Notes: a model not told the origin generated them from the sequence alone. DNA of 64,000 nucleotides from Candidatus Lloydbacteria bacterium RIFCSPHIGHO2_02_FULL_50_18 (GCA_001821395.1 MHLM01000001.1:144021-208020); one strand, 5' to 3'. Numbered from the stretch's first letter, positions 5,664 through 63,860 are shown. Translations and numbers: made by a program.

Positions 5664-6060
5664 TGAAAAATCAGCCCATGTGGGCGATTTTTCTTATGTG
5701 CCGGAGAGAAAGTGCTCTGCGGCACTTTCGTGAGGGACTTGAAAAGCTTTGCGATGTTTATAAAGAATTCTTATTCTGAATAAACCGCAAGGGTGTACTG
5801 ACCGAGTAGCGGTCAAGTCCCCTCTTTCTTTGACAAAAAACGTAGTAACTCGTGACCAAGTCTGATACCCTTGCGTGCTTTCGTGAGGGACTTGAAAGGG
5901 ATTTCGATATTTTCAAGGAGCCATGCTCCGAGAAAATCGAAATCCACCTGGCGAAGTAATCGCCAAGTCCCTCGTTAATTGCATCAATAAGACCTAGTGA
6001 TTCGTGACCAAGTCCGAGAGTACTGCTCGGCTTCCGTGAGGTGACCCACTAGAGACGCGC
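5664..6060 (+). repeat. tRNA-linked elements, about 2.5 tandem units. Terminator hairpin 5666-5692. Mirror copy of the tRNA 3' end split by a hairpin (tgtgccggag[agaaagtgctctgcggcactttcgt]gagggacttgaa, 5697-5742). Core ATTCTTATTCTGAATAAA ... GGGTGTACTGACCGAGTAGCGG. Direct copies of the T-arm (tcaagtcccctc, ccaagtccctcg, ccaagtccgag).
   Basis: Read directly from the sequence; the same architecture recurs at 10 other loci. Confidence 0.7.
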
Positions 6061-6142
6061 ATGATTGTACCTGCGCATTGCACTCATACATATTCTCAAG
6101 TAGAGTTGACTCAGAATCTCATAGTCAATTTACGGAGGAAAA

Positions 6143-6622
6143 ATGCAACAAATATCGTCCCTCGGTGAGCTTTCGGCGATACAAAGTACCGCACTCGATG
6201 AAGCACTTCTAGTGCTAGAAAACTCCTACAATCCCTATTCTCACTTTTGTGTCGGGGCATGCCTCTATACACAAGACGGAAAACTGGTATCCGGAACAAA
6301 TGTCGAAAACGCTGCGTATGGTTCAACCATTTGCGCCGAACGTTCCGCCATTTTGAGTGCAAATGCACTCGGAATCAGACGATTCATTGGCATTGCGATC
6401 ATCGCGCGCGGAGAAAATTTCGACACAACGGAAGTCACTGGTCCGTGCGGAAGCTGTCGGCAAATGCTTTATGAACTTTCGCAAATTTCGAACTGCGACC
6501 TAGAGATCGTTCTTTCGACGTCAAAGAAGGATAAGATCATCGTAACAACAATCAAGGAACTTCTCCCGCTCGCCTTTGGCCCAGTTGATCTCGGCATCGA
6601 CATCACCAAGTATCAAAAATAA
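6143..6622 (+). CDS. cdd: Cytidine deaminase. Zinc ligands CAE and PCGSCRQ. RBS GGAGG 6 nt upstream of the start.
   Basis: 159-aa ORF with the CDA zinc-binding motifs. Confidence 0.8.
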   Translation: MQQISSLGELSAIQSTALDEALLVLENSYNPYSHFCVGACLYTQDGKLVSGTNVENAAYGSTICAERSAILSANALGIRRFIGIAIIARGENFDTTEVTGPCGSCRQMLYELSQISNCDLEIVLSTSKKDKIIVTTIKELLPLAFGPVDLGIDITKYQK

Positions 6623-6670
6623 TATGTCGGCAATAAAAAAGCGCTCTGATCGAGCGCTTTTTACTTGTAA

Positions 6671-7294
6671 CTATATCTTCCCAACCAGCTCAATCCCCGG
6701 CTTGAGTGTGACCTCTCCCGGTTCCCAGCTTGCGGGACACACATTGCCACCATGCTCAGCGACAAACTTTGCCGCACGTAATTTGCGGAGCAACTCCTTT
6801 CCGCTTCGTCCGATCGCATTGTCGTTGATCTCCATCGTCTTCAGCACCCCCTCAGGATCAACAATGAAGCTTCCGCGCAGAGAAAGCCCCGAGTCCCCGC
6901 CATCGGCAATATACGTTCCGAAGAGCATCGAAAGACTTCCGTCGGGGTCGGCGACCATCGGATATTGGATCTTCTTGATTGCAACCGAAGAATCGTGCCA
7001 TGCTTTGTGTGCGTACACCGTGTCAGTAGAAACCGAAAGCACCTCTGCACCTTCCTTTTTAAATTCTTCATACATGTCCGCCATTTCTTCAAGCTCAGTC
7101 GGGCAGACGAACGTAAAGTCTGCAGGGTAAAAGAAATAGATAACCCACTTTCCAAGGAGGTCTTTTGTCTTAATTTTCGTCAATGCATCATTTTTAGTAT
7201 CGTAGACGGCAAGCTCCATCTCTGGGAGCTTATCTCCGATCGACAGTGATACGTCAACCAGATCTCCACCGCATGCACAGGTCTCTTCATTCAT
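6671..7294 (-). CDS. 2-Cys peroxiredoxin (AhpC/TSA family). Active site FTFVCPTEL; resolving Cys in VCPA.
   Basis: Prx motifs in the translation. Confidence 0.8.
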   Translation of the reverse strand: MNEETCACGGDLVDVSLSIGDKLPEMELAVYDTKNDALTKIKTKDLLGKWVIYFFYPADFTFVCPTELEEMADMYEEFKKEGAEVLSVSTDTVYAHKAWHDSSVAIKKIQYPMVADPDGSLSMLFGTYIADGGDSGLSLRGSFIVDPEGVLKTMEINDNAIGRSGKELLRKLRAAKFVAEHGGNVCPASWEPGEVTLKPGIELVGKI

Positions 7295-7362
7295 AAGTGT
7301 ATAATTTTATATGTAAGGCCCAAATTATAGCATTTTTCGTGAAAAGTTCTATACTCTCAAAC

Positions 7363-8265
7363 ATGAATAATGAGAAGCCAAAAATAGTCGTCGTTGTCGG
7401 TCCGACGGCATCGGGAAAGAGCGATCTCGCGGTAATTATCGCGCAAAAATTTAACGGCGAAGTAATTTCCGCGGATTCACGTCAAGTATATACAGGGCTC
7501 GATATCGGAACAGGAAAAGTGACCGAAGAAGAGATGGGCGGAGTCACTCATCACCTGCTTTCTGTCGTATCTCCGGAGGTCATCTTTACGGTAAGTGAGT
7601 ATCGCACCATGGCACAACATGCGATCGACGAGATACTTGCGCGGGGAAAACTGCCCATCATCTGCGGTGGTACAGGATTTTATATTCAAGCTCTCGTTGA
7701 CGGGATACAGTTGCCCGATGCACCACCGAACCCAAGGCTGCGCGAAACACTGTCTGCGTTCACGACAACAGCGCTTTTTGAAAAACTCACAGCCCTTGAT
7801 CCGGATTTCGCCGACATCGTCGACAAGCACAATCCGCACCGACTCATTCGCGCCATCGAGATCGCGTCAGCGCTCGGGCACGTTCCCTCTCTCGAAAAAC
7901 ATCCGCTGTATGATCCGTGCTTTATCGGCATCTCAACAGATCTCTATACACTCCGTGAGCGCATTCACAAAAGACTCCTCGCACGCCTCAATGCCGGAAT
8001 GCTTGATGAAATAAAAAGACTTCACGCGGAGGGACTGTTGTGGGAGCGAATGGAGGCGCTCGGACTGGAATATCGCTATCTTGCGCGCCACCTCACGGGG
8101 AAGCTTTCGTTCGACGAGATGACGAAAGAGTTAGAAAATGAGATCTTCCATTATGCCAAAAGACAAATGACCTGGTTCAAACGCGATAACCGTATTCATT
8201 GGTTTGAAAAAGATGATCTCGTCGCTGTCGAAAAGGAGGTAGGGAAACATCTCCTTCGAGAATGA
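7363..8265 (+). CDS. miaA: tRNA dimethylallyltransferase (P-loop VVVGPTASGKS). The ORF opens at 7297; the start is probably M23.
   Basis: MiaA N-terminal P-loop and overall length. Confidence 0.8.
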   Translation: MNNEKPKIVVVVGPTASGKSDLAVIIAQKFNGEVISADSRQVYTGLDIGTGKVTEEEMGGVTHHLLSVVSPEVIFTVSEYRTMAQHAIDEILARGKLPIICGGTGFYIQALVDGIQLPDAPPNPRLRETLSAFTTTALFEKLTALDPDFADIVDKHNPHRLIRAIEIASALGHVPSLEKHPLYDPCFIGISTDLYTLRERIHKRLLARLNAGMLDEIKRLHAEGLLWERMEALGLEYRYLARHLTGKLSFDEMTKELENEIFHYAKRQMTWFKRDNRIHWFEKDDLVAVEKEVGKHLLRE

Positions 8266-8328
8266 TCCTTAAAATATAAATTATGTAATTCATATCGGTC
8301 GATACAAATTACATAATATATTAACATC

Positions 8329-8358
8329 AAAAACCCCACTCATGGTGGGGTTTTTTAC
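8329..8358. terminator. Bidirectional rho-independent terminator aaaaccccactcatggtggggtttttt between the convergent miaA and peptidase genes. An 11-bp palindrome (attatgtaatt ... aattacataat) lies just upstream.
   Basis: GC stem flanked by A/T runs. Confidence 0.6.
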
Positions 8359-8360
8359 GA

Positions 8361-9293
8361 CTATTCCTCGCCCATATATTCGGGCGGGAGAACAAAGACG
8401 TGATAATGCGAACGCTCAATGATGAACAGAATTTTATGCTTTTGTTGATCGGCGATAAGCCGGGCCTCAAGCCATGCGCGTTTCTGTTGACCAATATCCT
8501 TCAGACCGAGATCAAGCGAGGACCCACTTGTATGGGTGGAGCACAGAAATGCATAGCGACAGTCTGCGGGCGATAGCCCTCGCCTCACCTCTTTTGCCTG
8601 ATCCTCAAAGGAGCGAATCATCGAAGTAACGCGAAGCGGAACGAAATGCTCACCGGCCTGCTCTTCCAGCGCAAAATGCTGATGCATATCATGAGCAAGT
8701 CCCGCGATATAATCGCGCACCCATGGACGAGTGAACCTCCTGTCGGGAGGGATCTCTTTTGACACCACTTCAACGTAAGGAGACGATATCTCCACAAGCT
8801 GACCTCCCGCTTCACGTCGGATATCCGCGAGATCGCGATATCCTCGAAGCCGAAATGTGCGCGCGAGACAAACTTCATGCCCATGATGCGCCGTGGATCC
8901 GCGCAGTGCGGACCAAAAGGCCCTGAGTCCGTTTTCCTCGCGTGCGGTCTGCTCTCGAAACACGAAATCCACTACAGCTCCAGTGCGATTCGTCTCAGTC
9001 ACATGGCGGATGCATTCCGAAAATGCATCACGTATCGCCTCTTGCTTCGAGGAAAGCAATAGCTTCGCACCAAGCGGCACTCGAGATGGATCGGCAACCG
9101 GTGGCAGCTTATTCTGTCTCACTTTGTGCTTTCCGGACCGTTGGGGCTTCTTTACCTTCTTGCACAGCTTTTGTTTATGATTCTTCCGGCACTCCGCGCG
9201 AACGGACGTGTACTCCGTAGCCGGTGCGGCAAATGTGCTTCCAAAAAGGAGCACCATGAACAAAGCGGCTATCGCTCGTGCAATATGCTTCAT
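8361..9293 (-). CDS. Secreted peptidase M15-like protein (VanY/D-Ala-D-Ala carboxypeptidase fold). Signal peptide; motifs STHTSGSSLD (SxHxxGxAxD-like) and ERSHYH.
   Basis: Signal peptide plus partial M15 zinc-ligand motifs; assignment tentative. Confidence 0.45.
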   Translation of the reverse strand: MKHIARAIAALFMVLLFGSTFAAPATEYTSVRAECRKNHKQKLCKKVKKPQRSGKHKVRQNKLPPVADPSRVPLGAKLLLSSKQEAIRDAFSECIRHVTETNRTGAVVDFVFREQTAREENGLRAFWSALRGSTAHHGHEVCLARTFRLRGYRDLADIRREAGGQLVEISSPYVEVVSKEIPPDRRFTRPWVRDYIAGLAHDMHQHFALEEQAGEHFVPLRVTSMIRSFEDQAKEVRRGLSPADCRYAFLCSTHTSGSSLDLGLKDIGQQKRAWLEARLIADQQKHKILFIIERSHYHVFVLPPEYMGEE

Positions 9294-9361
9294 TGCGTTC
9301 CCCCTTCAAAGAAACCTCTACGTTCACGCTAACATGCCTTAGGGTTTGCGCAAGGAGAGAA

Positions 9362-9532
9362 ATCAGCGGGCCCACGAGGAATCGATCGCAGTACCGTTCG
9401 TTGCGGTCACAGATAATTTCCTCGCCGTCGCACGGAAATTTCCGCGACCCCGACTCGCAACCTCGCTTGCTAGCTCGGTATCAGCTCCGTCTCCCGCAAA
9501 GCGAAAAACTGCATTCGCAGTTATTTCGTCTT
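9362..9532 (-). repeat. tRNA-Trp-linked element. Core GAGTCGGGGTCGCGGAAATTTCCGTGCGACGGCGAGGAAATTATCTGTGACC, hairpin CGGTACTGCGATCG, direct copy of the tRNA 3' end (cgattcctcgtgggcccgc, 9362-9385), partial mirror tgcggg...gagtcgggg.
   Basis: Read on the minus strand. Confidence 0.6.
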
Positions 9533-9534
9533 TG

Positions 9535-9605
9535 CGGGCCCACGAGGAGTCGAACCTCGGACTCTTCTTTTGGAGAGAAGAATTTTACCGCTAAACTATA
9601 GGCCC
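9535..9605 (-). tRNA. tRNA-Trp(CCA).
   Basis: Hand-folded. Acceptor gggccua/ugggccc, anticodon stem cttct/agaag with loop cuCCAaa, T-arm cgagg-ttcgact-cctcg. Confidence 0.8.
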
Positions 9606-9645
9606 TGTATGGGAGAATATAACACGCAACGGGTATTGCTTCAAC

Positions 9646-9671
9646 AAAAAACCACCGAGGGGTGGTTTTTT
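9646..9671. terminator. Hairpin aaaaaaccaccgaggggtggtttttt, terminator for rpmG.
   Basis: Perfect 8-bp GC-rich stem with flanking A/T runs. Confidence 0.6.
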
Positions 9672-9673
9672 GA

Positions 9674-9829
9674 TTACTTCTTTGCTTCTTTGAACGTGAC
9701 GCGCTTGCGGAGTTTTGCGCTGTATTTCTTGAGTTCGATCTTGCGCGTGACGAGCTTCTTATTCTTGCTGGTCCAGTAGACCTCGCCTGTTTCCTTGTGT
9801 TTAAGCTGTATGAGATTATCTTGTGACAT
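9674..9829 (-). CDS. rpmG: 50S ribosomal protein L33. 51 aa: [51 protein letters not shown]. Below the 60-aa cutoff of the supplied ORF track.
   Basis: Translated by hand. L33 pattern (TG..Y.T.KNK...KLELKKY.P..RKHV..KE.K). Conserved rpmG then tRNA-Trp synteny. Confidence 0.6.
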
Positions 9830-9903
9830 ATGGGTCTTGTTAGGTGTTAGCAGGTTACCAAATACCCCTCAAAATGGCAAGTAGGGCCACCAAATAACAG
9901 ACC

Positions 9904-11046
9904 CTAAATAACGTAAAATCGCTTGATGAGTGGATTCAGCCTCGTCACCACCTCATAATGCGTCGTAGCGGCAAATTGAGCCATTTCAGAGGACTCGATA
10001 AGCTCTTTGCCTTGTTTGCCGATGAGCACCACTTCATCCCCCATGCGCACGTTCGGAATGTCGGTCACGTCGACCACGATCATGTCCATAGCGACACGCC
10101 CGACAATGCCGGCGCTTTTCCCCCCGATGAGTACCCTTCCCTTGCTCGACAACATCCTTGGTATTCCGTGCCAATACCCAACAGGGATCACCGCAAGCCG
10201 CGAATCGCGCCGGAGCATCTCCGTAGAGTCATACCCCACGCGCTCACCTTTCTTTACCTCCTTAACCTCGCCGACAACGGCCTTCCAGGCAAGTACGGGA
10301 TACAGGGCGATCGACCGCGACAGATGGTACTTCGCCTCATCAGACGGCCAGAGCCCATAGCAGCCAATACCGATGCGTACCATATCGTAATGCGTATTCG
10401 GATAAAGCATCGCGCCGCCCGTTGCCGCAGCATGACAGATCGGGTCGTGCCCCGCTTCATAGAATAATACTTTCCACTTTTCAAATTCAGCCGCTTGCCG
10501 TTTCGTAGCATCGCTATTCCTCGGGTTTTTTGCTTCAGCGAAATGGGTGTACAGACCTTCGACACGAAAAATACGGAGTGGAGTTTGAGCAATTTCACGA
10601 AGTAGCTTTAGTGCTTCTTCCATCTGGAATCCTTGACGATGCATTCCGGTATCGACCTTGATGTGTACGAGGAGTGGTTTTTTTGACGGTGGTAATTTGC
10701 ACACCTCTTTGAACTGAGCAAAAGAAGATATCGTAATACTGATGTTGTGTTTTCTCGCGTCACGGTAAAGTGAAGGCAACGTGAAACCGAGAACGAGGAT
10801 GGGTACATTGATTCCATTTTTTCGTAACGCCATCGCTTCGGTGATCGAATCAACACCAAGCCAGTCAGCGCCGAGGCGCACCATTTCCGGCGCAAATTCA
10901 TGCAGATTGTGCCCATACGCATTCGACTTCACCACCGCCATCATCATCGTCTTCTTCCCGATCAACTTCCGAAACGTACGATAATTTTTCGCTATCGCGC
11001 GTTTGTCGACCTCGATCCATGTACGTAAATTCTCTGCATATTTCAT
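9904..11046 (-). CDS. alr: Alanine racemase. PLP-lysine motif AVVKSNAYGH. The start is probably M34 of the tracked ORF.
   Basis: Alr N-terminal motif and length. Confidence 0.8.
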   Translation of the reverse strand: MKYAENLRTWIEVDKRAIAKNYRTFRKLIGKKTMMMAVVKSNAYGHNLHEFAPEMVRLGADWLGVDSITEAMALRKNGINVPILVLGFTLPSLYRDARKHNISITISSFAQFKEVCKLPPSKKPLLVHIKVDTGMHRQGFQMEEALKLLREIAQTPLRIFRVEGLYTHFAEAKNPRNSDATKRQAAEFEKWKVLFYEAGHDPICHAAATGGAMLYPNTHYDMVRIGIGCYGLWPSDEAKYHLSRSIALYPVLAWKAVVGEVKEVKKGERVGYDSTEMLRRDSRLAVIPVGYWHGIPRMLSSKGRVLIGGKSAGIVGRVAMDMIVVDVTDIPNVRMGDEVVLIGKQGKELIESSEMAQFAATTHYEVVTRLNPLIKRFYVI

Positions 11047-11326: not shown

Positions 11327-11329
11327 CAA

Positions 11330-11372
11330 ATAAAATGAGCATCCCTTCCGAGGGATGCTCATTTTATTATGC
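11330..11372 (+). terminator. Perfect hairpin aaataaaatgagcatccc-ttccga-gggatgctcattttatt.
   Basis: 17-bp perfect stem. Confidence 0.65.
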
Positions 11373-11374
11373 GT

Positions 11375-11640
11375 AGAGCAAGCGAAGCTTGCGGGCAGGA
11401 TTCGAAGACCCTGAGTTTATCGTAGCGAGCTTGTCCTCAAGCGATGCGAGATTCGAAGGGTGTACTGTCCATGTAATGGAAGAAACTCCTGCCCTTTCAA
11501 TATGGCTTCCGGCAGGATTCGAAGCCGTTCTCCCATGTTTTTGAGCGATGGCTTTGCATCGTGAAAAAATGGGCGACATTGTTTACTTGCGAACAAACCG
11601 ACCCTATGGTCGGTTTTACGTATGGTGTCCAGATATATGC
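11375..11640 (+). repeat. tRNA-linked elements. Mirror of the tRNA-Tyr 3' end split by the hairpin gcaagcgaagcttgc. Core GGGTGTACTGTCCATGTAATGG plus direct copy agaaactcctgccc. Then a second partial unit whose mirror (ggcaggattcgaagccgttctcccatgtttttgag) is identical to the tRNA-Lys element at 24738-24775. Ends in the hairpin aaaccgaccctatggtcggtttt.
   Basis: Read directly from the sequence. Confidence 0.6.
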
Positions 11641-11643
11641 CCT

Positions 11644-24038: not shown

Positions 24039-24205
24039 AAGTAAATAAATCCCTGATGGGATTTATTTACTTTGTGCCCGGGAGAAAGCAAGCTGCCTTG
24101 CTTTCGCGTGGGAGTCGAAGCCCGTTTCGTTATTTGCGAAGAATTCCTATTCTGAGAAAATCGAAATGGGGTGCTGACCCAGCAAAGATCGAACCTCCCA
24201 CGTTA
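24039..24205 (+). repeat. tRNA-linked element. Terminator agtaaataaatccc-tgat-gggatttatttact. Mirror tgtgcccggg[agaaagcaagctgccttgctttcgc]gtgggagtcgaagccc. Core GAATTCCTATTCTGAGAAAATCGAAATGGGGTGCTGACCCAGCA. Direct copy gatcgaacctcccacg.
   Basis: Read directly from the sequence. Confidence 0.7.
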
Positions 24206-24697: not shown

Positions 24698-24700
24698 CAT

Positions 24701-24880
24701 AAAAAAATCCGCGACAAGCGGATTTTTTTATGGTGCCCCCGAAGAAGTGCCCTGCGGCACTTCTGGCAGGATTCGAAGCCGTTCTCCCATATTTCTGAAT
24801 GATTCATATCATGAGGAAATGGGAAACGGGTACTGACGCAGTAGGCGTCGAAACTCCTGCCGTGAGATTTCAAAAGACTG
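24701..24880 (+). repeat. tRNA-linked element. Terminator aaaaaaatccgcgacaagcggattttttt. Mirror tggtgcccccg[aagaagtgccctgcggcacttctg]gcaggattcgaagcc. Core GTTCTCCCATATTTCTGAATGATTCATATCATGAGGAAATGGGAAACGGGTACTGACGCAGTAGGCG. Direct copy tcgaaactcctgccgtgag.
   Basis: Read directly from the sequence; the core is about 80% identical to the unit after tRNA-Val(GAC). Confidence 0.7.
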
Positions 24881-25152: not shown

Positions 25153-25400
25153 CAAAGAAAACCGCGTAAGCGGTTTTTGTGTGCCCAGAGCGACTGAATA
25201 CTACAAAGAGTACTTCATTTTTCTAAAGCAGAATACTGCTAAGAAAAATTGGTCGCACCACAGAGAGTACTTCATTTTTCTAGAGCAGAATACTGCTAAG
25301 AAAAATTGGTCGCTGCTTCAGTCGCGCGAGAGGACTTGAAGCCGTTCTCCTGTATTTTTGAAGATTTCTTAATCTGACAGGTAGCCCAAATCTTGCACGC
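25153..25400 (+). repeat. tRNA-linked element. Terminator aaaaccgcgtaagcggtttt. Mirror tgtgcccagag[~130-nt insert]gagaggacttgaagcc. The insert is a hairpin (gcgactgaa ... ttcagtcgc) whose loop holds 2 x 52-bp tandem repeats (AGAGTACTTCATTTTTCTARAGCAGAATACTGCTAAGAAAAATTGGTCGC). Core spacer GTTCTCCTGTATTTTTGAAGATTTCTTAATCTGACAGG.
   Basis: Read directly from the sequence. Confidence 0.65.
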
Positions 25401-56297: not shown

Positions 56298-56600
56298 CAA
56301 GAAAAAGCCCCATTGGGGGCTTTTGATTTGTGGGCGAAGAAAGCCAACTGCTTGGCTTTCGCTGGAGGAGTCGAAAAGCTTGGTGATGTTTTTGAGAAAT
56401 TCATATTTTGAAAAAACCACCAAAGTATACTGTCCCCGTAGGGGAAGACTCCTCGATTCGTGACCGACTATTCTGTTGTCTGCATGACTTTCGTTAGAGG
56501 AGTCGAAGACCTTCTCCCATATTTTTGAGGATTTCCTAATCTAAAAAATGTGAAAGGGGTACTGACGCAGTAGGCGTTGAATCTCCTCTATCACCCACGC
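56298..56600 (+). repeat. tRNA-linked elements, 2 units. Terminator aaaaagccccattgggggcttttt. Mirror tgtgggcga[agaaagccaactgcttggctttcgc]tggaggagtcgaa. Unit 1 core GTATACTGTCCCCGTAGGGGAAGACTCCTCGATTCGTGACC. Unit 2 is about 80% identical to the tRNA-Lys unit and ends with a direct copy ttgaatctcctctatcacccacg.
   Basis: Read directly from the sequence. Confidence 0.7.
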
Positions 56601-57087: not shown

Positions 57088-57425
57088 ACCTAGGACGCAA
57101 CTGCTTGCGTCCGTGGAGGATTTGAAAGGATTTTCATTATCGAGTCCGCGAGGTTGAAAATCACCTGCGGCGGTAGCCGAGAATCCTCCAGGGTGCACAA
57201 ATCAGACACAAAACCTTCCCTGCGGAAGGTTTTGTGTCTGATTTGTGAGACAGAGTCATGTTTTTTCAGCAGAAAAAACAGACGAGTCGGGGTCGCGGAA
57301 ATTTTCGAGTGGCGACGAGAAATTATCTGTGACCAAGGATGGCTTTTCGTCATCGAAATACGAAACCCGTACCACTCCCGTAGGGAGAGAAATTCCTCCA
57401 GGGGTACACCATCAGCAAGAAATTC
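57088..57425 (+). repeat. tRNA-linked elements. Hairpin ggacgcaactgcttgcgtcc. Partial mirror gtggaggatttgaa. Direct copy 1 cgagaatcctccagggtgcaca. 20-bp perfect hairpin aatcagacacaaaaccttcc/ggaaggttttgtgtctgatt. Core TTGTGAGACAGAG ... GAGTCGGGGTCGCGGAAATTTTCGAGTGGCGACGAGAAATTATCTGTGACC ... CCCGTACCACTCCCGTAGGGAGAG. Direct copy 2 gaaattcctccaggggtacacc.
   Basis: Read directly from the sequence. Confidence 0.65.
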
Positions 57426-58152: not shown

Positions 58153-58215
58153 ACAAAGATTATACCTGAAAACTATCGCTGAAATTAAACTGAATGCGGT
58201 TTGCCGCTGATCGCA

Positions 58216-58878: not shown

Positions 58879-58887
58879 TCCTTGATA

Positions 58888-59400
58888 CTACTGCGCCGGT
58901 GCCGATTCGCCAACAGCCTCATCTGCGATGTCGGCATCCGCATCGGCCTTGGTATGATGCACGCGTCCATCAATATGATTCGGTGGTGCATAGACCGTAT
59001 AGATCTTTAGGGCTACTGCACCGATATTTCGGAAATTATGCTTCGTACCGGGAACAACGACCACGACGTCACCCGAACTGACCGGAAACTTTTCGTCGTC
59101 AAGTATTCCTTCACCCGTACCGCTCAAGAAGAACAGCGTCTGCTCGGTATATTTATGCGTTTCCTCTCCGACCTCACCATCGGGCGGGATGCTCATGACG
59201 ACGAGTTGGCTATTTGTGCCGGTGAATAAAACGCGCCTAAAGTCTTCGTTTTCTTCCGTCTTTTTTACGATGTTTGTATGGTAGCTCATATATTGCGTAG
59301 GCTGACCGCTTATAGACGAGATCGGCTTCTTGGAGAAATTGAAACCAAGCATATCTGAGGTCAGAAAAATAATGATCAATAAAGAAAATACAATTCCCAC
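58888..59400 (-). CDS. Membrane-anchored cupin-domain protein.
   Basis: Cupin_2-like G(x)5HxH...E...G pattern. Confidence 0.5.
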   Translation of the reverse strand: MGIVFSLLIIIFLTSDMLGFNFSKKPISSISGQPTQYMSYHTNIVKKTEENEDFRRVLFTGTNSQLVVMSIPPDGEVGEETHKYTEQTLFFLSGTGEGILDDEKFPVSSGDVVVVVPGTKHNFRNIGAVALKIYTVYAPPNHIDGRVHHTKADADADIADEAVGESAPAQ

Positions 59401-59539
59401 GATACCACGATACTAATAATGATTTTCATTGTTTTCAGTTGCATATGTTTTTTCAAAGGATTCGTAGCACAAAGGCCCTGCCAACGCAGGGCCTTTCCTG
59501 CCACTAGTTACAAACTACTTCTTTGAAACAGTGTGGGGG

Positions 59540-61348
59540 TTACGCAATGCGTTTTCGGAGCACCATAACCGAAACGAACATGAACATACCGACTGCAAAG
59601 AGCGGCAATGCAAGTCCGTTATCTGTTCCGGCATAACCCGTGTTTGGTAACATCGGAGTAGCAGCGACAACGACCGTCGCGAGCGCAATGTCTCTTGCCG
59701 TCAAGCCATTGGCATCACCCTCGGCAATGACCGTATTGGTCGTGGTCTCTGTCATCATCATACTGCACGTGTAGACCCAGGTCTCGGTGGGATCAAGCTT
59801 TGAATCGCCATTCGTATCACCGTAGACAAATCTCACCGCGTTGCACTTGTCATCAGTAAGGCGAACATTGCTGAGTGCAACTGTTCCCGGATTCGTCACT
59901 GTTTTGGTATACGCAACGATCCCTCCTCCCGCGCGAAGTGCGAGCGGACTCGGAACCTTTGTCACATGGATCAATGGGGGCACGACGGGCAAACCGACGA
60001 CGACTGTCGCACGTGCGATGTCGACCGCGGAGATACCGTTAGCCCATCCGGTCGCGGTAACAATGTTCGTGTGAGTTTCCGAGATCACACTGGAACACGT
60101 ATGGACCCACGTTTCATTCAGGTCAAGCTTACTATCGTTGTTGGTGTCACCTGAAACTAGCACGATAGGACTACAGGTATCGCCGACCATCGTGATATTC
60201 TCGACGGGCACAATTCCGATATTACGAAGTGTGTAGGTGTACGTGACCAAGCCTGGGCCACCGGGTAACGACAAGGGGCTCGCGACCTTGATAACGTCCA
60301 TAAGCGGCGGAACGAGCGGGACGATAGGTGCGGCGATGTCGTTATTCGTGATGATACAGAACTTATTATCACCAGGATTAAGACTTACGCCTCCTTGAAG
60401 GTCACAATCGCCTGAGAACGTACGCGTGTATTTGGTAAGGTCGACTGTTTCAGTGACCTTGTACGCAAGCGCAGGCGCAGGGAATGTGTTGGTCACCCCG
60501 GAGAGGACCGACGCACCGTTAACGAACAACGGGAAATCGGAGATCTTCTTGGTTCCTCCGCCGTCATTCACGACATGCTTCACGACCGTGATCGTTGCAG
60601 GCTGCTTGGAGGACACCGGCACTACAGCACCGGTAGCACATCCGGAAATATTGGTCACACCGCCCGTCGACAAGGTTCCAGTGAGCGCCATCATGCGACC
60701 GACAACCGTTGCACCGGTCAAGAGAGACACATTGCTATTTGCAATAAGCGTCCCCACAAACTGTGTGCCTGGAGATCCTTGTATCGTAGCGTCTCGATCG
60801 ATCTGCCAATAGACGTTGCAGGCATTGACGCCGGCACCCAAAACAACCGTAGCGGCGTTAGTGAATGTAAGGTCGTTATTGATCTGGAAGATCCAAACAT
60901 CCGTAGGGCTTCCGTTCAAGGTAAGCGTCGTATTGATCGTTGCGTCGCCGGAGCGAATATATAGGCCCGGGGCCGGAGTCATGTCCGGAGGAGAAGCAGG
61001 GTCCCACGTCGTTCCAAGAGGTTGATTCGTAGGATTCATACTTGTCCATGCAGCCGTCGCATCGGTCTTTGCAGTTCCCGACAGTCCGCCTGTCCCAAAA
61101 TAGCTTGAACCCCCAACTGTCCAAGGACCGCTGGCTGAAAGACCCGGGTTGACACCGAGGTCACCGGAGACCGTGGCTCCGGAACCGTCGGCAGTCATTG
61201 CCGAACCACCGAAGACAGAGAAACTTGCCGCCGTACCGAGGTTCGGTGCGACCGCAACCGTCGCGAACGCAACACTGGGACCGGTAAAACCGAGAGCCAA
61301 GGAGGCAACGAAGGCTGTTGTTATCGAAACTTTATTAAAAATTTTCAT
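59540..61348 (-). CDS. Sortase-anchored surface protein. Signal peptide, DUF3494 (ice-binding-like beta-helix) domain (LGTAASFSVFGGSAMT ... GDLGVNPG), two DUF11-like repeat domains, C-terminal LPNTG sorting signal with TM and RKR tail.
   Basis: LPNTG plus hydrophobic segment plus basic tail; internal ~110-aa duplication. Confidence 0.7.
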   Translation of the reverse strand: MKIFNKVSITTAFVASLALGFTGPSVAFATVAVAPNLGTAASFSVFGGSAMTADGSGATVSGDLGVNPGLSASGPWTVGGSSYFGTGGLSGTAKTDATAAWTSMNPTNQPLGTTWDPASPPDMTPAPGLYIRSGDATINTTLTLNGSPTDVWIFQINNDLTFTNAATVVLGAGVNACNVYWQIDRDATIQGSPGTQFVGTLIANSNVSLLTGATVVGRMMALTGTLSTGGVTNISGCATGAVVPVSSKQPATITVVKHVVNDGGGTKKISDFPLFVNGASVLSGVTNTFPAPALAYKVTETVDLTKYTRTFSGDCDLQGGVSLNPGDNKFCIITNNDIAAPIVPLVPPLMDVIKVASPLSLPGGPGLVTYTYTLRNIGIVPVENITMVGDTCSPIVLVSGDTNNDSKLDLNETWVHTCSSVISETHTNIVTATGWANGISAVDIARATVVVGLPVVPPLIHVTKVPSPLALRAGGGIVAYTKTVTNPGTVALSNVRLTDDKCNAVRFVYGDTNGDSKLDPTETWVYTCSMMMTETTTNTVIAEGDANGLTARDIALATVVVAATPMLPNTGYAGTDNGLALPLFAVGMFMFVSVMVLRKRIA

Positions 61349-61488
61349 CTTATTTATTGCTAATCTTTTAAGACCATTAATTACTATATTTTACAAGCAT
61401 CTACAAAGAGGCACAAGGCTGATGTGCACAGCAGTGATAGCTGCTATAAAAAACGGAAACCTTTTATAGTTCCCGTTTTTAATGTGAG

Positions 61489-62742
61489 CTATTGATAATG
61501 TGCACTAATATAGGCACGAGTTATCGGTCCAAAATTCCCCAAAGGCGGAGTGATTCCTGCCTGAGCTTGGAATTCTGCAAGTGCTGCGCGGGTAAGGGAG
61601 CCAAAATACGTCGTTGCACCATTTTTTCCAAGTGCTTGTGCCGCCGGACCCTTTCCTTCTGAGATCAGGAATTGCTGAAGTGCGGTGACACTGGTCCCCC
61701 TACTCCCTTCATTGAGACTTATCGCAATCGCGCGCACTTGCTGTCCAAAAGCCGAAGCTGAGGCCCCCTGCTGTGCAGCCTGCGCCGCCTTGAGTGTTCG
61801 CAAGGTTGCCTGCAGTTCGACAAGTCGAGCCTGTAAGGCAATCAGATTTGCACTCGGTGCGACCGACGTAGTCGACGTCTGTGCTTGTGTCGATACTGTT
61901 TGTCCGGCACTCGAAGAAGTGACGGTCGGTGTCGATACAGGCGTCACTACGGGTGTCGGCGTCACGACCGGAGCGACAATCGCTGCGGAAGTTGGCATGA
62001 CAACGGTGTTTGCATCAAGCGTGACTGCCGACTGTGCCAATGCGCGGCCGTTCAATTGGGCGCCGGTATTGAGTACGATTGCCGTCTGATCCAAGATATT
62101 ACCGTTCATGACCGCGGTTGTATTGATGGTCGTCTGTCCGGCAACAACCCAGAAAATATTATTTGCCTGCGCACCTCCGGCGAGGATGATCTTCGCACCG
62201 GAGCTGATGTCGAGGTTCTGTGCGACCTGAAAGATCCAGATACCGTTTGCCGAACCCGAAAGCGTCACATCGGTGGGAATCGTCAGCCCAGTACCCCATT
62301 TATAGACGCCGGCAGGAAGGGTAAGTCCGCCAATGTTTCCCGCGCCAAGTTCAGTAACCGTAGGCGCACGCCCCGCGGCGTCAGTATATGCGTTTTGCAT
62401 GTCGAGTATCGCGGTGGTGAGATTTGCAGGAGTTGGGTCCGCATAGCTCGGTGCATATACTTTTCCGGTCACTAATGCTGATGTAGAAAACGCACTCGCT
62501 GCAGGAAGCGTTAAATCGAATCCGGTAATATACGTCGCAGCCGCCGGACTAACACCAATGTCACCGACAACGGCGGTAGTCCCCGTTGTTGAGATCCCTG
62601 TTTTTGCAAGGATCACGAAATTGCCTGCTGATCCGAGATTTACCGTTCCACCCTCGACCGCTAATGCGATCTGCCCGGTAAGACCGAGCGCTGCAGAGAC
62701 AAGCAGCGTCGCAAACATTGAATACTTATTGAATTTCTTCAT
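61489..62742 (-). CDS. Secreted DUF3494 (ice-binding-like) protein with a C-terminal peptidoglycan-binding domain (ALQQFLISEG ... FGSLTRAALAEFQ).
   Basis: Paralogous N-terminal domain to 59540-61348; PGBD motif. Confidence 0.65.
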   Translation of the reverse strand: MKKFNKYSMFATLLVSAALGLTGQIALAVEGGTVNLGSAGNFVILAKTGISTTGTTAVVGDIGVSPAAATYITGFDLTLPAASAFSTSALVTGKVYAPSYADPTPANLTTAILDMQNAYTDAAGRAPTVTELGAGNIGGLTLPAGVYKWGTGLTIPTDVTLSGSANGIWIFQVAQNLDISSGAKIILAGGAQANNIFWVVAGQTTINTTAVMNGNILDQTAIVLNTGAQLNGRALAQSAVTLDANTVVMPTSAAIVAPVVTPTPVVTPVSTPTVTSSSAGQTVSTQAQTSTTSVAPSANLIALQARLVELQATLRTLKAAQAAQQGASASAFGQQVRAIAISLNEGSRGTSVTALQQFLISEGKGPAAQALGKNGATTYFGSLTRAALAEFQAQAGITPPLGNFGPITRAYISAHYQ

Positions 62743-63229
62743 AGCTATTATTTATTTATTGATAACTTGTTAATTTAACTTACTGACCCCTTAGGGTGCG
62801 GGTCACGTGATATATACGCGATGCGTGTAATGATCCACGGATCAAATTCAACGATGATAACAAGCATGGTCGACAGCCATCCTTGCACTTCGATAATAGT
62901 AACATACTTATTCTCCAATAAGTTAATGCTATGCTTTAAAGCTACTATACTTTATTTATATCATTCCCCAGCCTATCAAACGAACAGATTTTAAGGCCTC
63001 CACGATGATCAGGTCATTGATTATTACAAATAAATGTTTATGCTGTCCGGCGATCTCCCCAACATTCGCGTTGCAGGCATCCGTATAAACAATGGAGCCT
63101 CGCGCACCTTGCGCAATATCATTCATATGTGACAAATATATTGACAGGGTCGTCGCGATTGGTGATGACGATGGGTGCATGGTCCGACATCATTCCGCTC
63201 AACAAAATAACCGCCTAAAGCGGTATTTT

Positions 63230-63434
63230 GTACGAGCGGAGATGAGAGGATATTCGGTCACAGGTTACTAAGCCTTTTAGCGCAAAGCCTACTAAAAGTC
63301 TAAGTATCTTCGACCCCGACTCGGCGACAATACTTTTCAAAACTAAAGTATCGTAAACCGCCTCCGTCTTTCGAATCCTCTCATCTCTCGCAGTGATAAA
63401 TTAAAAAAGACCTTACGGTCTTTTTTAAACCACC
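63230..63434 (-). repeat. tRNA-Ser-linked element. Terminator aaaaaagaccttacggtctttttt. Unsplit mirror tttcgaatcctctcatctctcgcag. Core GCCGAGTCGGGGTCGAAG ... CCTGTGACC. Direct copy gaatatcctctcatctccgc (63238-63258).
   Basis: Read directly from the sequence. Confidence 0.6.
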
Positions 63435-63436
63435 TG

Positions 63437-63523
63437 CGGAGATGAGAGGATTCGAACCTCTGGTGGGGTTACCCCCACGGCAGTTTTCGAAACTGCTGCC
63501 TTCAACCGCTCAGCCACATCTCC
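63437..63523 (-). tRNA. tRNA-Ser(CGA), type II.
   Basis: Hand-folded. Loop uuCGAaa, long variable arm cgtgggggtaaccccacc, T-arm agagg-ttcgaat-cctct. Confidence 0.8.
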
Positions 63524-63607
63524 AATGTGTCCTAGATTCGAGCGATTGGCAAAATCTACCATATCTATCTAGATTTTTCCAGACATTGTGCTAGTATGTG
63601 ACGCATC

Positions 63608-63679
63608 GGCCTCATCGTCTAACGGTTAGGACAGCACCCTTTCACGGTGTAGATCCGGGTTCGATTCCCGGTGAGGTCA
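63608..63679 (+). tRNA. tRNA-Glu(TTC).
   Basis: Hand-folded. Loop cuUUCac, T-arm ccggg-ttcgatt-cccgg. Confidence 0.75.
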
Positions 63680-63860
63680 CTAGTACAAATATGAGCACTC
63701 GTCGAGAGTGCCTTTTTGTCTGTGACCCCAAGTGAGTAAGCTACTTTGCTCACGTCAGATAATCGAAGCCTTTTCCATTATTTGTGAAGGATTCCTATCC
63801 TGAATAAATTGGAAAACGGGTACTGCTCCTATAGGGAGAGATTCTCTGTTGATTCTAGTG
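63680..63860 (+). repeat. tRNA-linked element. Terminator gagcactc-gtcgag-agtgc. Mirror tgtgacc[ccaagtgagtaagctactttgctcac]gtcagataatcgaagcc. Core GGATTCCTATCCTGAATAAATTGGAAAACGGGTACTGCTCCTATAGGGAGAG.
   Basis: Read directly from the sequence. Confidence 0.55.

What the first reader, a model, noticed from the sequence alone, without database searches (positions are those of the whole stretch)
5664..63860. Genome-wide family of miniature ORF-free elements placed after the 3' end of 10 of 11 tRNA genes, each carrying mirror and direct copies of its own target's 3' end
Downstream of tRNA-Leu(CAA), Trp, Tyr, Leu(TAA), Lys, Leu(TAG), Val(GAC), Val(CAC), Ser and Glu the same architecture recurs. (1) A rho-independent terminator hairpin. 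(2) An inverted copy of the last ~20-25 nt of that particular tRNA (T-arm 3' strand plus acceptor 3' strand, including the post-discriminator nucleotides as encoded in the genome rather than mature CCA), split by an extra hairpin in most loci and unsplit at tRNA-Ser. (3) A conserved core of two flavours. Type A: RATTCCTATYCTGAATAAA ... GGGTACTG-N4-6-CAGTAGG or CCC-GTA-GGG hairpin. Type B: TTGTGAGACRGRG ... GAGTCGGGGTCGCGGAAATTT ... GAGAAATTATCTGTGACC. (4) A diverged direct copy of the tRNA 3' end 130-300 bp downstream. Cores are about 80% identical between loci (for example Lys versus Val-GAC unit 2), whereas the terminal copies match each locus's own tRNA. One unit after tRNA-Tyr carries a Lys-type mirror, which suggests exchange between loci. 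The density is at least 11 copies in 64 kb. The architecture with target-matched termini is unlike IS elements, typical MITEs, REP or BIME elements, or CRISPR. It is most like trans-mobilised miniature integrative elements, or alternatively co-transcribed structured RNAs that mimic or pair with tRNA 3' ends. I do not recognise it as a described element class.
Basis: partly seen in the sequence, partly recalled or inferred. Interest (0 to 1): 0.85.

Follow-up and report, generated by a model that had tools for sequence, protein, structure and literature searches.

The report
Structured mobile repeats at tRNA ends
In this candidate-phyla-radiation bacterium almost every tRNA gene (and one protein gene) is followed by a small gene-less, tightly folded repeat that brings a new copy of the gene's end, pushes the old end downstream and carries an inverted copy of it, an apparently undescribed kind of small mobile DNA whose insertion mechanism is still unknown.

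Summary
Ten of the 11 tRNA genes in the window, from Candidatus Lloydbacteria RIFCSPHIGHO2_01_FULL_49_22, are followed by ORF-free structured units.

Each unit has the same order:
- gene 3' end (copy 1)
- optional terminator-like hairpin
- hairpin H1
- inverted copy of the target
- one of three interchangeable cores (A, its variant C, or B)
- displaced old 3' end (copy 2)

The inverted copy pairs with copy 2 to form stem P1, which closes the core. Covariation strongly supports both folds (type A: 29 of 33 pairs compensated). No Rfam family matches.

One sits after topA, where a 75-nt gene end is duplicated with only synonymous differences. That implies arrival with a foreign gene end.

Related Paceibacteria carry the same units after at least eleven further tRNA types, always matched to the local tRNA. 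Orthologous sites are empty, filled or hold a different core. Cores do not follow tRNA identity.

I conclude these are non-autonomous integrative or mobile modules, not RNAs the tRNAs need. No recombinase was found. How the target-matched stem is made is unknown; a folded att site is my inference. A co-transcribed RNA role is not excluded.

The parts
2149..2223 (+). topA 3' end, copy 1 (functional end of the gene, including the stop codon)
   Evidence: Pfam identifies topoisomerase I. This segment is repeated at 77% identity 204 nt downstream (D8). It translates KTIPERCSKKECPNHNPHKLNKPK*.
2227..2351 (+). Type B unit after topA: H1 hairpin with CTGC loop (2227-2248), inverted copy of the start of the duplicated segment (2249-2265), B core (2266-2351)
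   Evidence: Model R2 scores 77.5 bits. The fold shows H1 and a stem P1 between 2249-2265 and the start of copy 2, z = -6.5. Coordinates.
2352..2458 (+). Displaced topA 3' end (copy 2, 2352-2427) with the original terminator (2436-2458)
   Evidence: Translates KTIPERCSKKECPNHNPHKLNKLT*, so the differences from copy 1 are synonymous over 22 codons. The relative L159 carries this allele as its live topA end and has no element.
5362..5515 (+). 26-nt copy of the 5' end of tRNA-Leu(CAA) (5362-5387) followed by a type B core (5431-5515), upstream of the live tRNA
   Evidence: D12 (96% identical to 5578-5603). R2 scores 71 bits. The Pa stem is flipped to GTC/GAC (by eye).
5665..5824 (+). tRNA-Leu(CAA) unit 1 (type A): terminator-like hairpin 5665-5693, acceptor mirror 5697-5706, H1 5707-5731, T mirror 5732-5743, core 5744-5814, direct T copy 5815-5824
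   Evidence: (mirrors 12/12 and 10/10). R1 scores 93.5 bits.
5842..6020 (+). Further modules after tRNA-Leu(CAA): B 3' remnant (5842-5857), unit 2 of the A/C variant (5885-5974), B 3' remnant (5999-6020)
   Evidence: R1 scores 64.2 bits at 5884-5973. CGTGACC|AAGTC junctions seen.
9365..9532 (-). tRNA-Trp unit: hairpin 9499-9532, 6-nt acceptor mirror 9493-9498, B core 9405-9492, remnant of a type A 3' half 9383-9404, direct copy 9365-9382
   Evidence: R2 scores 76.8 bits. Direct copy 13/13. The orthologous site in L293 holds a complete type A unit.
11328..11607 (+). tRNA-Tyr units: hairpin 11328-11368, acceptor mirror 11370-11376, H1 11377-11392, T mirror 11393-11406, A core 11407-11481, direct T copy 11482-11494; unit 2 at 11511-11607 lacks P3
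   Evidence: R1 scores 74.8 and 17.8 bits. Also.
24039..24201 (+). tRNA-Leu(TAA) unit (type A): hairpin 24039-24072, acceptor mirror 24073-24082, H1 24083-24107, T mirror 24108-24119, core 24120-24190, direct T copy 24191-24201
   Evidence: R1 scores 92.9 bits. Mirrors 12/12 and 10/10. The orthologous site is empty in L115.
24700..24861 (+). tRNA-Lys unit (type A): hairpin 24700-24731, acceptor mirror 24732-24741, H1 24742-24764, T mirror 24765-24777, core 24778-24849, direct T copy 24850-24861
   Evidence: R1 scores 103.2 bits. Fold z = -7.3 as DNA and -4.8 as RNA.
25154..25381 (+). tRNA-Leu(TAG) unit, truncated type A: hairpin 25154-25181, acceptor mirror 25180-25189, H1 position expanded by 2 x 57 nt (25190-25327), T mirror 25328-25340, 5' part of P2 (25341-25381)
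   Evidence: (D10).
56300..56599 (+). tRNA-Val(GAC) units. Unit 1: hairpin 56300-26, acceptor mirror 56329-37, H1 56338-62, T mirror 56363-75, core 56376-446, short direct T copy 56447-55. B 3' remnant 56456-69. Unit 2: T mirror 56495-507, core 56508-78, direct T plus acceptor copy 56579-99
   Evidence: R1 scores 83.9 and 87.6 bits. Direct copy 12/13.
57093..57410 (+). tRNA-Val(CAC) array: H1 57093-112, T mirror 57113-126, C core 57127-180, copy 2 57181-199, hairpin with CTGC loop 57200-243, B core 57248-334, type A 3' half 57335-388, copy 3 57389-410
   Evidence: R1 scores 27.2 bits and R2 88.6 bits. Copy 2 is 13/13.
63199..63428 (-). tRNA-Ser(CGA) unit (type B): hairpin 63401-428, unsplit mirror 63370-393, B core 63256-369, direct copy 63236-255, second terminator 63199-235
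   Evidence: R2 scores 63.2 bits. Mirror 12/12 and direct copy 13/13.
63693..63848 (+). tRNA-Glu unit (type A): hairpin 63693-720, acceptor mirror 63721-729, H1 63730-755, T mirror 63756-767, core 63768-839, direct T copy 63840-848
   Evidence: R1 scores 85.8 bits. The mirror and the direct copy have both drifted from the tRNA yet still pair with each other (by eye).

Best explanation
These are small (about 100-170 bp), gene-less, strongly folded DNA modules. They live inside the 3' ends of genes in a subgroup of Paceibacteria (Lloydbacteria, Taylorbacteria, Nomurabacteria and relatives).

**What an insertion is.** Each insertion is an insertion-duplication. The module brings a replacement 3' end for the gene (copy 1), often with its own terminator-like hairpin. 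Next come hairpin H1 and an inverted copy of the first 12-22 nt of the duplicated segment. Then comes one of three interchangeable structured cores (A, its variant C, or B). The old 3' end is left just downstream (copy 2). The inverted copy and copy 2 pair to form stem P1, which closes the core.

**Shown**
- This architecture.
- The conserved folds.
- Their restriction to this clade.
- Gain, loss and replacement at orthologous sites.
- Stacking and nesting of modules.
- Exchange of cores between tRNA types and between genomes.
- At topA, arrival together with a gene end from another lineage.

**Inferred**
- The modules are non-autonomous and are moved by an enzyme encoded elsewhere.
- The folded P1 plus core is the recombination substrate. 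On a single strand it rebuilds a duplex with the sequence of the target site, as integron attC sites and the CTX phage attP do (from my own knowledge of those systems).
- The arms of P1 are kept or made complementary by copying within the hairpin.
For: **Architecture and statistics**
-.

**Conserved folds**
- Type A, 34 copies: 91% of cells paired versus 63% in shuffles. 29 of 33 pairs carry compensatory changes. Covariation score is 0.575 versus at most 0.108 when partners are slid.
- Type B: 10 of 18 pairs compensated, including GAC/GTC to GCC/GGC.

**Not a known RNA family**
-.

**Clade-restricted**
- Model hits occur only in Patescibacteria loci.
- None in about 95 other loci (738 kb).
- None in 37 distant TopA loci (508 kb).
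- None in the viral contigs, phages or plasmids searched.

**Same frame in other genomes**
- Units follow Lys, Leu, Glu, Tyr, Pro, Val, Ser, Arg and Asn tRNAs.
- Mirror and direct copies match the local tRNA each time.

**Turnover at orthologous sites**
- Cys: empty in the window, L002 and L115; filled in L005 with a 22-nt perfect repeat.
- Leu-TAA: filled in three genomes, empty in L115.
- Trp: type A in L293, type B plus an A remnant in the window.
- Tyr: A in the window and L293, B in L295.
- Lys: A, B plus A, or none.
-.

**topA**
- The two 75-nt copies encode the same 22 residues despite 23% DNA divergence.
- Each allele is the live gene end in a different relative that lacks the element.

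**Displaced copies keep their old context**
- CCA plus terminator in L025.
- The original terminator at topA and at Ser.

**Cores do not follow tRNA identity**
- The window Lys core is 88% identical to the L025 Tyr core and 86% to the L040 Pro core.
- The L115 Lys core is closest to Leu-TAA cores.

**Tandem arrays, nesting and cargo**
-.

**Insulation from tRNA transcription**
- Terminator-like hairpins precede 10 of 12 units in the window.

**Literature**
- Partial tRNA copies are the usual mark of integration (PMC9897764).
- Integrase-less att-flanked elements that stack in tandem are known as CIMEs (PMC5704250).
Against: - No integrase, transposase or reverse transcriptase was found among about 40 ORFs of the window, or beside units in 10 other genomes.
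- No excised form was seen, and no empty site within one population.
- Copies within the genome are old (cores 54-80% identical), yet the fold is kept by compensatory changes. A functional RNA would show the same pattern.
- Type B has an invariant G-T pair and 16 G-T against 1 A-C mismatch (counted from the pair table). The apex of P2 in type A shows 10 against 0. This strand specificity is typical of RNA.
- Units always lie on the strand of the upstream gene.
- In L005 a unit sits between tRNA-Cys and tRNA-Leu, which are only 13-16 nt apart in relatives. It must therefore be transcribed there, unless Leu has gained a promoter.
- A protein cannot read P1 by sequence, because P1 differs at every site. 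The folded-att idea therefore needs structure-guided cleavage, which is untested.
Confidence: 0.5

Rival explanations
1. Cis-acting structured RNAs. The units are transcribed as 3' trailers of tRNAs and of the topA mRNA. They act as RNA, for example as processing or decay signals, 3' end protectors, protein-binding modules with tandem G-A motifs, or switches in which the inverted copy pairs with either the tRNA 3' end or the downstream copy. The match to the local gene end is kept by selection and local gene conversion.
For: - Strong covariation in both folds.
- An invariant G-T pair and G-T far above A-C in type B and in the P2 apex of type A.
- The tRNA-sense strand folds better than the opposite strand in most loci.
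- Units always lie on the same strand as the upstream gene.
- Unpaired motifs are conserved: GTACTG, the AGTAG loop, tandem GA loops and the CTGC loop.
- Old, diverged copies keep the fold.
- The L005 unit between Cys and Leu must be transcribed.
Against: - A terminator-like hairpin with a T run separates the tRNA from 10 of 12 units.
- Orthologous tRNAs carry A, B, both or nothing in relatives with 73-83% identical flanking proteins.
- The same frame occurs at a protein gene, with a 75-nt duplication whose copies differ only synonymously.
- Overall G-T versus A-C in type A is 36 versus 30.
- The mirror pairs beyond the discriminator, so it is a poor tRNA mimic.
- Cores move between tRNA types.
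Confidence: 0.2
2. Nucleic-acid-guided insertion. The inverted copy is a guide that selects the target by base pairing with the gene's 3' end, in the manner of group II intron EBS/IBS pairing, IS200/IS605 guide pairing or IS110 bridge RNAs. A trans-acting enzyme inserts the module next to whatever the guide matches. New tRNA targets arise by changes in the guide.
For: - The mirror always matches the local target, over more than 14 tRNA types and one protein gene, while the cores are shared.
- The mirror is split by a hairpin exactly at the acceptor/T-stem junction in most units.
- Lys and Tyr, which share a T-arm, share closely related units (D2, 104).
Against: - No associated enzyme gene was found.
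- The module must also carry a replacement gene end. At topA this is 75 nt from another lineage, which guide-directed insertion does not explain.
- Known guided systems leave no 13-75 bp direct repeats (from my own knowledge).
- No Rfam match to bridge, omega or intron RNAs.
Confidence: 0.12
3. No dedicated mechanism. The direct copies are ordinary attR scars of past integrations, or products of homologous or illegitimate recombination after DNA uptake. The cores are REP-like or terminator-like intergenic repeats homogenised by gene conversion. The mirrors arise by template switching at palindromic terminators.
For: - Partial tRNA copies are common integration scars (PMC9897764).
- The acceptor mirror is simply an extension of the terminator palindrome.
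- L084 and L293 show units attached to decayed tRNA fragments of variable extent.
- No enzyme was found.
Against: - The same ordered frame (H1, mirror, core, copy) recurs at about 50 units in more than 15 genomes with exact junctions, for example GTGACC followed by T-loop position 57.
- P1 is kept by compensatory change even where both arms have left the tRNA sequence (Glu in the window, L029).
- More than 14 tRNA types were founded independently with matched mirrors, which chance template switching would not do.
Confidence: 0.12

Closest known systems
CIMEs (cis-mobilizable elements): integrase-less remnants of integrative elements flanked by attL/attR at tRNA 3' ends, stacked by accretion (PMC5704250)
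   Same: - Flanked by direct repeats made of the target gene's 3' end.
- The gene is restored by an element-borne end.
- No integrase of their own.
- Tandem stacking at one tRNA.
- Occasional cargo ORFs.
   Different: - 100-170 bp rather than kilobases.
- A conserved covarying fold.
- An internal inverted copy of the target that pairs with the displaced copy.
- One family spread over more than 14 tRNA types and a protein gene.
- No related autonomous element seen.
Folded single-stranded recombination sites: integron attC and CTX phage attP(+) (from my own knowledge)
   Same: - Imperfect inverted repeats fold on one strand into a duplex that stands in for a double-stranded site.
- Structure is conserved more than sequence.
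- A variable branched tip.
- A frequent 2-nt bulge on one arm of P1, reminiscent of extrahelical bases.
- Arrays with or without ORFs.
   Different: - No R/L boxes (GTTRRRY) and no IntI or attI.
- The stem sequence is copied from the target and differs at each site.
- The repeats of the target are 13-75 bp, not 6-7 bp.
- Single-strand recombination was not tested.
MITEs, REP/BIME, and BOX, Correia or RPE-type small intergenic repeats
   Same: - Small, ORF-less, highly structured and numerous.
- Modular, as BOX elements are.
- Often located at gene 3' ends.
   Different: - The terminal inverted repeats are not a fixed sequence read by a transposase. They are target-derived.
- Long gene-end duplications replace short target-site duplications.
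- Strict placement and orientation at gene 3' ends.
Guide-bearing mobile elements: group II introns (EBS/IBS), IS200/IS605, IS110 bridge RNA (from my own knowledge)
   Same: The element contains a sequence complementary to its flanking target, split into two parts by a hairpin.
   Different: - No intron, ribozyme or recombinase hallmarks.
- No adjacent enzyme gene.
- Those systems leave no long direct repeats and do not carry a replacement gene end.

Membership tests
Rfam RNA families (any) | Match to a curated covariance model | tested here: not met
   Only tRNA reaches gathering score in the whole window. At E<=10 nothing overlaps the cores in 56290-57440; the only sub-threshold matches touching the units are generic hairpin hits (miRNA and plastid UTR models) on the terminator-like hairpins.
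Integrative element / CIME | Direct repeats (attL/attR) made of the 3' end of the target gene, with an intact gene on one side | tested here: met
   13/13 or 12/13 repeats at Trp, Val-CAC, Ser and Val-GAC. 22-nt and 49-nt perfect repeats in L005. A 75-nt repeat at topA (D8).
Integrative element / CIME | The element-borne gene end is of foreign origin | tested here: met
   The topA copies differ at 23% of bases but encode the same 22 residues. Each allele is the live end in a different relative. For tRNAs, only the L025 CCA/terminator contrast bears on this.
Integrative element / CIME | Empty and filled versions of the same site; tandem accretion | tested here: met
   Cys, Leu-TAA, Lys, Trp, Tyr and topA sites compared across relatives. 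Arrays in the window, L078 and L123. The compared genomes are different species, not strains.
Integrative element / CIME | A cognate integrase (in cis or trans) and excision as a circle | tested here: inconclusive
   No recombinase in the window or beside units elsewhere. The rest of the genome was not available, and excision is not testable here.
MITE | Fixed terminal inverted repeats shared by all copies, and a short target-site duplication | tested here: not met
   The inverted arms differ at every locus and copy the local tRNA. The duplications are 13-75 bp of gene end.
Integron attC | R''/L'' and L'/R' boxes with GTTRRRY core sites, next to an intI/attI platform | tested here: not met
   No such conserved boxes in alignments A2 or A3. 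No integrase found. Folding as a single strand is compatible with attC (DNA z = -7.3), but recombination is not testable.
REP/BIME with RAYT | 20-40 nt palindromes with a conserved 5' GTAG, dispersed between genes irrespective of neighbour | tested here: not met
   Units are 100-170 nt three-way junctions tied to gene 3' ends. GTAG occurs only in the P3 loop.
IS110 bridge RNA / IS200-605 omega RNA / group II intron | Adjacent recombinase, TnpB or RT gene and the family's RNA fold | tested here: not met
   No such ORFs. No Rfam match.
Diversity-generating retroelement (considered for the topA repeat) | Template/variable repeat pair differing at adenines, with an RT gene | tested here: not met
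   Differences between 2149-2222 and 2353-2426 are not adenine-specific (D8, by eye) and are synonymous. No RT gene.
tRNA-like RNA (RNase P/Z or synthetase substrate mimic) | Acceptor/T minihelix with a single-stranded discriminator-CCA end and a T-loop | tested here: not met
   The mirror pairs through the discriminator and the following 2-3 bases. The T-loop bases are paired inside P1.

The most novel reading that the evidence does not exclude
A new kind of recombination module. A folded, single-stranded 'self-addressed' att site has a stem that rebuilds the duplex of its own target, the T-loop and 3' end of any tRNA gene or the end of a protein gene. A structure-reading enzyme encoded elsewhere could then insert, stack and swap small cassettes, with or without ORFs, at gene ends. 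The target-matched arms would be regenerated by copying within the hairpin. In effect this would be an integron-like cassette system that uses tRNA gene ends as its platform in candidate-phyla-radiation bacteria.
Probability: 0.2. Interest if true: 0.9.

Novelty: new variant of a known kind. Interest (0 to 1): 0.72.

Why it matters
- **Genome biology.** Candidate-phyla-radiation bacteria have tiny genomes, yet this one spends about 150-450 bp behind nearly every tRNA gene on these units.
- **Gene exchange.** If the units are mobile, they are a pervasive and so far unannotated route of gene-end replacement and small-cassette exchange between species. That includes essential genes such as tRNAs and topA.
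- **Assembly and annotation.** The units are a likely cause of contig breaks at tRNA genes and of spurious 'tRNA fragment' calls.
- **Mechanism.** The target-matched stem is the unusual part. A process that writes both a direct and an inverted copy of an arbitrary target around a fixed structured core would be a new way of addressing DNA, whether by a folded att site or by a guide. It could be tested directly with the sequences defined here.
- **If they act as RNA.** They would then be one of the most abundant unclassified RNA folds in this clade.

Tried and rejected
**Known RNA families.** Rfam at gathering thresholds and at E<=10 gave nothing.

**Hammerhead ribozyme.** The three-way junction of type A lacks the conserved CUGANGA and GAAA positions: CTGT occurs in several copies and there is no A9 (by eye).

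**Box C/D RNA.** The P2 loop has CUGA-like and GA motifs, but no guide segments lie between them.

**DGR at topA.** Rejected because the differences are not A-specific and are synonymous.

**Unit-internal promoters.** None found above chance.

**Kissing pair between the H1 loop (CUGC) and the P3 loop (GUAG).** Loop identities do not co-vary across copies.

**RNA versus DNA from G-T against A-C counts.** Clear for type B and the P2 apex, ambiguous for the rest of type A.

**An autonomous partner**
- No recombinase in the window or beside units.
- Both viral-contig pattern scans gave only chance matches.
- Phage and plasmid blastn gave nothing.

**Poorly spent scans**
- The genome-contig scan used a 15-base pattern that was too short. 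Most of its 116 loci were chance hits, and only about 15 were real.
- The metagenome scan with TopA returned only distant relatives (at most 46% identity, apart from two short contigs) with no units.

**Far-flung copies of tRNA ends that might bound large islands.** None in the window.

**'Pseudo-tRNA with a core inserted in its T-loop'.** Rejected because non-palindromic T-loops (TTCAAGT, TTCAAAT, TTCGACT) appear as true reverse complements in the mirror.

Full report
**Source and context.** The window is an ordinary chromosomal stretch of a Parcubacteria/Paceibacteria bacterium. An alanine racemase identical to the window's is named in the protein collection as Candidatus Lloydbacteria bacterium RIFCSPHIGHO2_01_FULL_49_22. 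IF-2 homologues carry Parcubacteria, Lloydbacteria and Paceibacterota names. About 40 ORFs were scanned against Pfam and are housekeeping genes such as topA, relA/spoT, parB, alr, clpB, infB, gyrA, ftsA/Z and hisS. None is an integrase, transposase or reverse transcriptase. An independent ENA assembly is 100% identical over window 6904-14046 and 51489-64000, so the units at Trp, Tyr, both Val, Ser and Glu are not artefacts of one assembly.

**The observation.** ARAGORN and Rfam agree on 11 tRNA genes. Ten are followed by ORF-free units; tRNA-Cys has only a hairpin.
- The reverse complement of T-loop plus T-stem 3' strand is present at 12/12 in seven loci and 11/12 in an eighth. Such 12-mers occur only 2-5 times in the window on both strands.
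- The reverse complement of the acceptor 3' strand, including the bases after the discriminator, is 10/10 in three loci and 9/10 in two. It is unsplit at Ser.
- Direct copies of T-stem plus acceptor are 13/13 at Trp, Val-CAC and Ser, and 12/13 at Val-GAC. Elsewhere only the T part remains, or the copy is diverged (Glu) or missing (Leu-TAG, truncated).
- The 'Lys-type mirror' after tRNA-Tyr is not evidence of exchange by itself, because tRNA-Tyr and tRNA-Lys have the same T-arm.

**Anatomy.** Reading the loci side by side gives one frame:
1. Gene 3' end (copy 1).
2. An optional hairpin with flanking A and T runs that looks like an intrinsic terminator. Its stem is often prolonged by pairing of the acceptor 3' strand with its mirror.
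3. Hairpin H1, usually AGAAAG-N-CTGC-N-CTTTCG.
4. The mirror of the first 12 or so bases of the duplicated segment.
5. A core.
6. Copy 2.

The mirror pairs with the start of copy 2 to give stem P1.
- *Core A* is a three-way junction. P2 is a long hairpin with a tandem GA/GA internal loop and a covarying tip. A GTACTG joiner follows, then P3, a short hairpin with an AGTAG or GTA loop. Core C is a shortened relative of A.
- *Core B* is two hairpins held by conserved bases: A-GAC-GGAG, hairpin, CGA-GTC-GG, then GGTCG, hairpin, (C/T)GTGACC.
- Single-sequence folds reproduce H1, P1 and the cores. The Lys unit gives z = -7.3 as DNA and -4.8 as RNA; the topA unit gives z = -6.5.

**The folds are conserved by selection.**
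- For A, an 8-sequence seed had 25 of 34 pairs with compensatory changes.
- The covariance model then collected 34 copies from 17 sources. In these, 91% of cells pair against 63% in shuffles, and 29 of 33 pairs have changes on both sides. The covariation score is 0.575 against at most 0.108 when partners are slid.
- For B, 10 of 18 pairs are compensated. The three-pair stem GAC/GTC becomes GCC/GGC in three copies and GTC/GAC in one. One G-T pair is invariant in all ten sequences.
- Neither fold matches any Rfam family.

The B model finds five copies in the window.
- One follows the stop codon of topA (2227-2351). The last 75 nt of topA (2149-2223) recur directly after the B core (2352/3-2427) at 77% identity, followed by what looks like the gene's own terminator.
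- The sequence between H1 and the core (2249-2265) is the reverse complement of the start of the duplicated segment, and it forms P1 with copy 2. The frame is therefore not specific to tRNA.
- Both copies translate to the same 22 residues, KTIPERCSKKECPNHNPHKLNK. With 17 base differences that are all silent in those codons, copy 2 cannot be a decaying fill-in duplication. The two ends diverged as working genes in different lineages.
- In support, a relative (L159) has the copy-2 allele as its live topA end, and another (L151) has the copy-1-like allele. Neither has a unit.
- A second B core lies upstream of tRNA-Leu(CAA), behind a 26-nt copy of that tRNA's 5' end.

**Other genomes.**
- A pattern scan of one genome per species gave mostly chance hits. 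The A model then picked out only Patescibacteria loci: Lloydbacteria, Taylorbacteria, Nomurabacteria, UBA6023 and unnamed MAGs. It found nothing in about 95 other loci.
- There were no hits in 37 more distant TopA loci (508 kb), in the viral contigs searched, or in phage and plasmid collections.
- In the positive genomes the units again lie just 3' of a same-strand tRNA: Lys, Leu, Glu-CTC, Tyr, Pro, Val-TAC, Val-GAC, Ser, three Arg and Asn. Mirror and direct copies match that tRNA, including unusual T-loops such as TTCAAAT.
- In L025 the displaced copy still has CCA and its own terminator, while the live tRNA ends CAC|AAG.

**Turnover.** Syntenic loci from relatives differ at the same tRNA. 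These relatives share 73-84% identical flanking proteins.
- Cys is empty in the window, L002 and L115. In L005 it holds an A unit with a 22-nt perfect repeat.
- Leu-TAA is filled in three genomes and empty in L115.
- Lys has A (window, L115), B in front of a decayed A (L002), or nothing (L005).
- Trp has a complete A in L293. The window has B followed by the 3' third of that A.
- Tyr has A units in the window and L293, and B in L295.
- B cores sit inside A frames exactly between the mirror and P2 (L005 Leu-TAG).
- Units stack in tandem (Leu-CAA, Val-GAC, Val-CAC; L078; L123).
- In L078 and L029, ORFs lie between the tRNA and units that still carry that tRNA's mirror and copy: a methyltransferase and proteins with no Pfam match.
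- Core similarity does not follow tRNA identity or host. The window's Lys core is 88% identical to a Tyr core and 86% to a Pro core in other genomes, while the L115 Lys core is closest to Leu-TAA cores.
- The arms nevertheless match the local tRNA every time. Where both arms have drifted from the tRNA (Glu in the window; L029) they have drifted together.

**Interpretation.** Four features mark these as mobile or integrative DNA rather than RNAs each tRNA needs:
- The gene-end duplication with a foreign-lineage end.
- Displaced ends that keep their old terminators.
- Empty, filled and replaced orthologous sites.
- Stacking, nesting and cargo.

Partial tRNA copies are the usual footprint of integration (PMC9897764). 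Integrase-less, att-flanked elements that accrete in tandem are known as CIMEs (PMC5704250). What is not known from those is:
- The size (100-170 bp).
- A conserved covarying fold.
- An internal inverted copy of the target that closes the fold.
- One family that serves more than 14 tRNA types and a protein gene.

So many independent foundings with matched arms call for a process that writes or corrects the arms from the target. I infer that folded P1 plus core is the substrate of a structure-reading recombinase encoded elsewhere. It would be analogous to single-stranded attC and CTX attP sites, which mimic a duplex site (from my own knowledge). I also infer that complementarity of the arms is maintained by copying within the hairpin. 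Neither step is shown.

**What speaks for an RNA role.**
- Units are always on the strand of the upstream gene.
- Type B has an invariant G-T pair and 16 G-T against 1 A-C; the P2 apex has 10 against 0.
- The sense strand folds better than the antisense strand in most loci.
- Copies within one genome are old (cores 54-80% identical) yet keep the fold.
- In L005 a unit lies between two tRNAs that are otherwise 13-16 nt apart, so it must be transcribed there.

**What speaks against an RNA role.**
- Ten of 12 units in the window are preceded by a strong hairpin plus T run.
- Type A overall shows 36 G-T against 30 A-C.
- The mirror pairs past the discriminator, so the unit is a poor tRNA mimic.
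- Orthologous sites turn over quickly.

I keep the RNA reading as the main rival at about 0.2.

**Verdict.**
- The finding is real, reproducible in a second assembly and far beyond chance.
- The family appears undescribed: no Rfam match, and nothing in five literature searches.
- I class it as a new variant of a known kind, namely non-autonomous integrative or intergenic repeat elements.
- There is a real chance (about 0.2) that the target-matched folded stem reflects a new recombination mechanism.

Noticed in passing
window 25200-25313; L293 9620-9678: A 57-nt segment is tandemly duplicated (95% identical) inside the H1 position of the tRNA-Leu(TAG) unit. A related segment sits at the H1 position of a unit in another genome. 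The H1 hairpin may therefore itself be a site where further sequence is inserted.
   Followed up: partly
window about 23903-23947: A perfect hairpin of about 20 bp, with no T run, lies between tRNA-Cys and tRNA-Leu(TAA). tRNA-Cys is the only tRNA without a unit, and relatives have only 13-16 nt in this spacer.
   Followed up: no
L293 5082-5879 and L295 7423-8004: A LAGLIDADG homing-endonuclease ORF abuts the 5' end of tRNA-Tyr in one relative. An AEP-like (primase-polymerase) ORF sits between rpmG and tRNA-Trp in another. Neither is present in the window, and both are candidate actors in tRNA-linked DNA exchange.
   Followed up: no
window 5362-5387: A 26-nt copy (96% identical) of the 5' end of tRNA-Leu(CAA) lies 216 nt upstream of the live gene, with a type B core between them. 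This is the mirror-image situation, with a displaced 5' end, compared with all the other units.
   Followed up: partly
L084 2790-3010: A second unit behind tRNA-Arg(CCG) carries its own 3' two-thirds of a different tRNA-Arg(CCG): anticodon arm, T-arm and acceptor. Older gene ends of variable extent are evidently pushed downstream by newer insertions.
   Followed up: partly
window 5655-5662, 24033-24040, 25149-25156, 56294-56301; L025: Live tRNAs next to units mostly end discriminator-CA-AA(A/G) rather than CCA. A displaced copy in L025 keeps CCA. Insertion may therefore change how the tRNA 3' end has to be matured.
   Followed up: no
window 12565-13275 (inside ORF 11644-13926, minus strand): A 760-aa ORF with no Pfam match contains several internal repeats of about 150 nt (64-76% identical).
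   Followed up: no
window 32480-33822: Three neighbouring small ORFs on the minus strand share a conserved 42-nt segment, so they look like a paralogous small-protein cluster. The relative L005 has T4SS-pilin-like small genes, but at a different position in its locus.
   Followed up: no
L292 (Logan contig), equal to window 9534-11252: A short-read contig of the same organism stops exactly at the 3' end of tRNA-Trp and 10 nt inside tRNA-Tyr. Assembly graphs appear to branch at these tRNA/unit borders.
   Followed up: no
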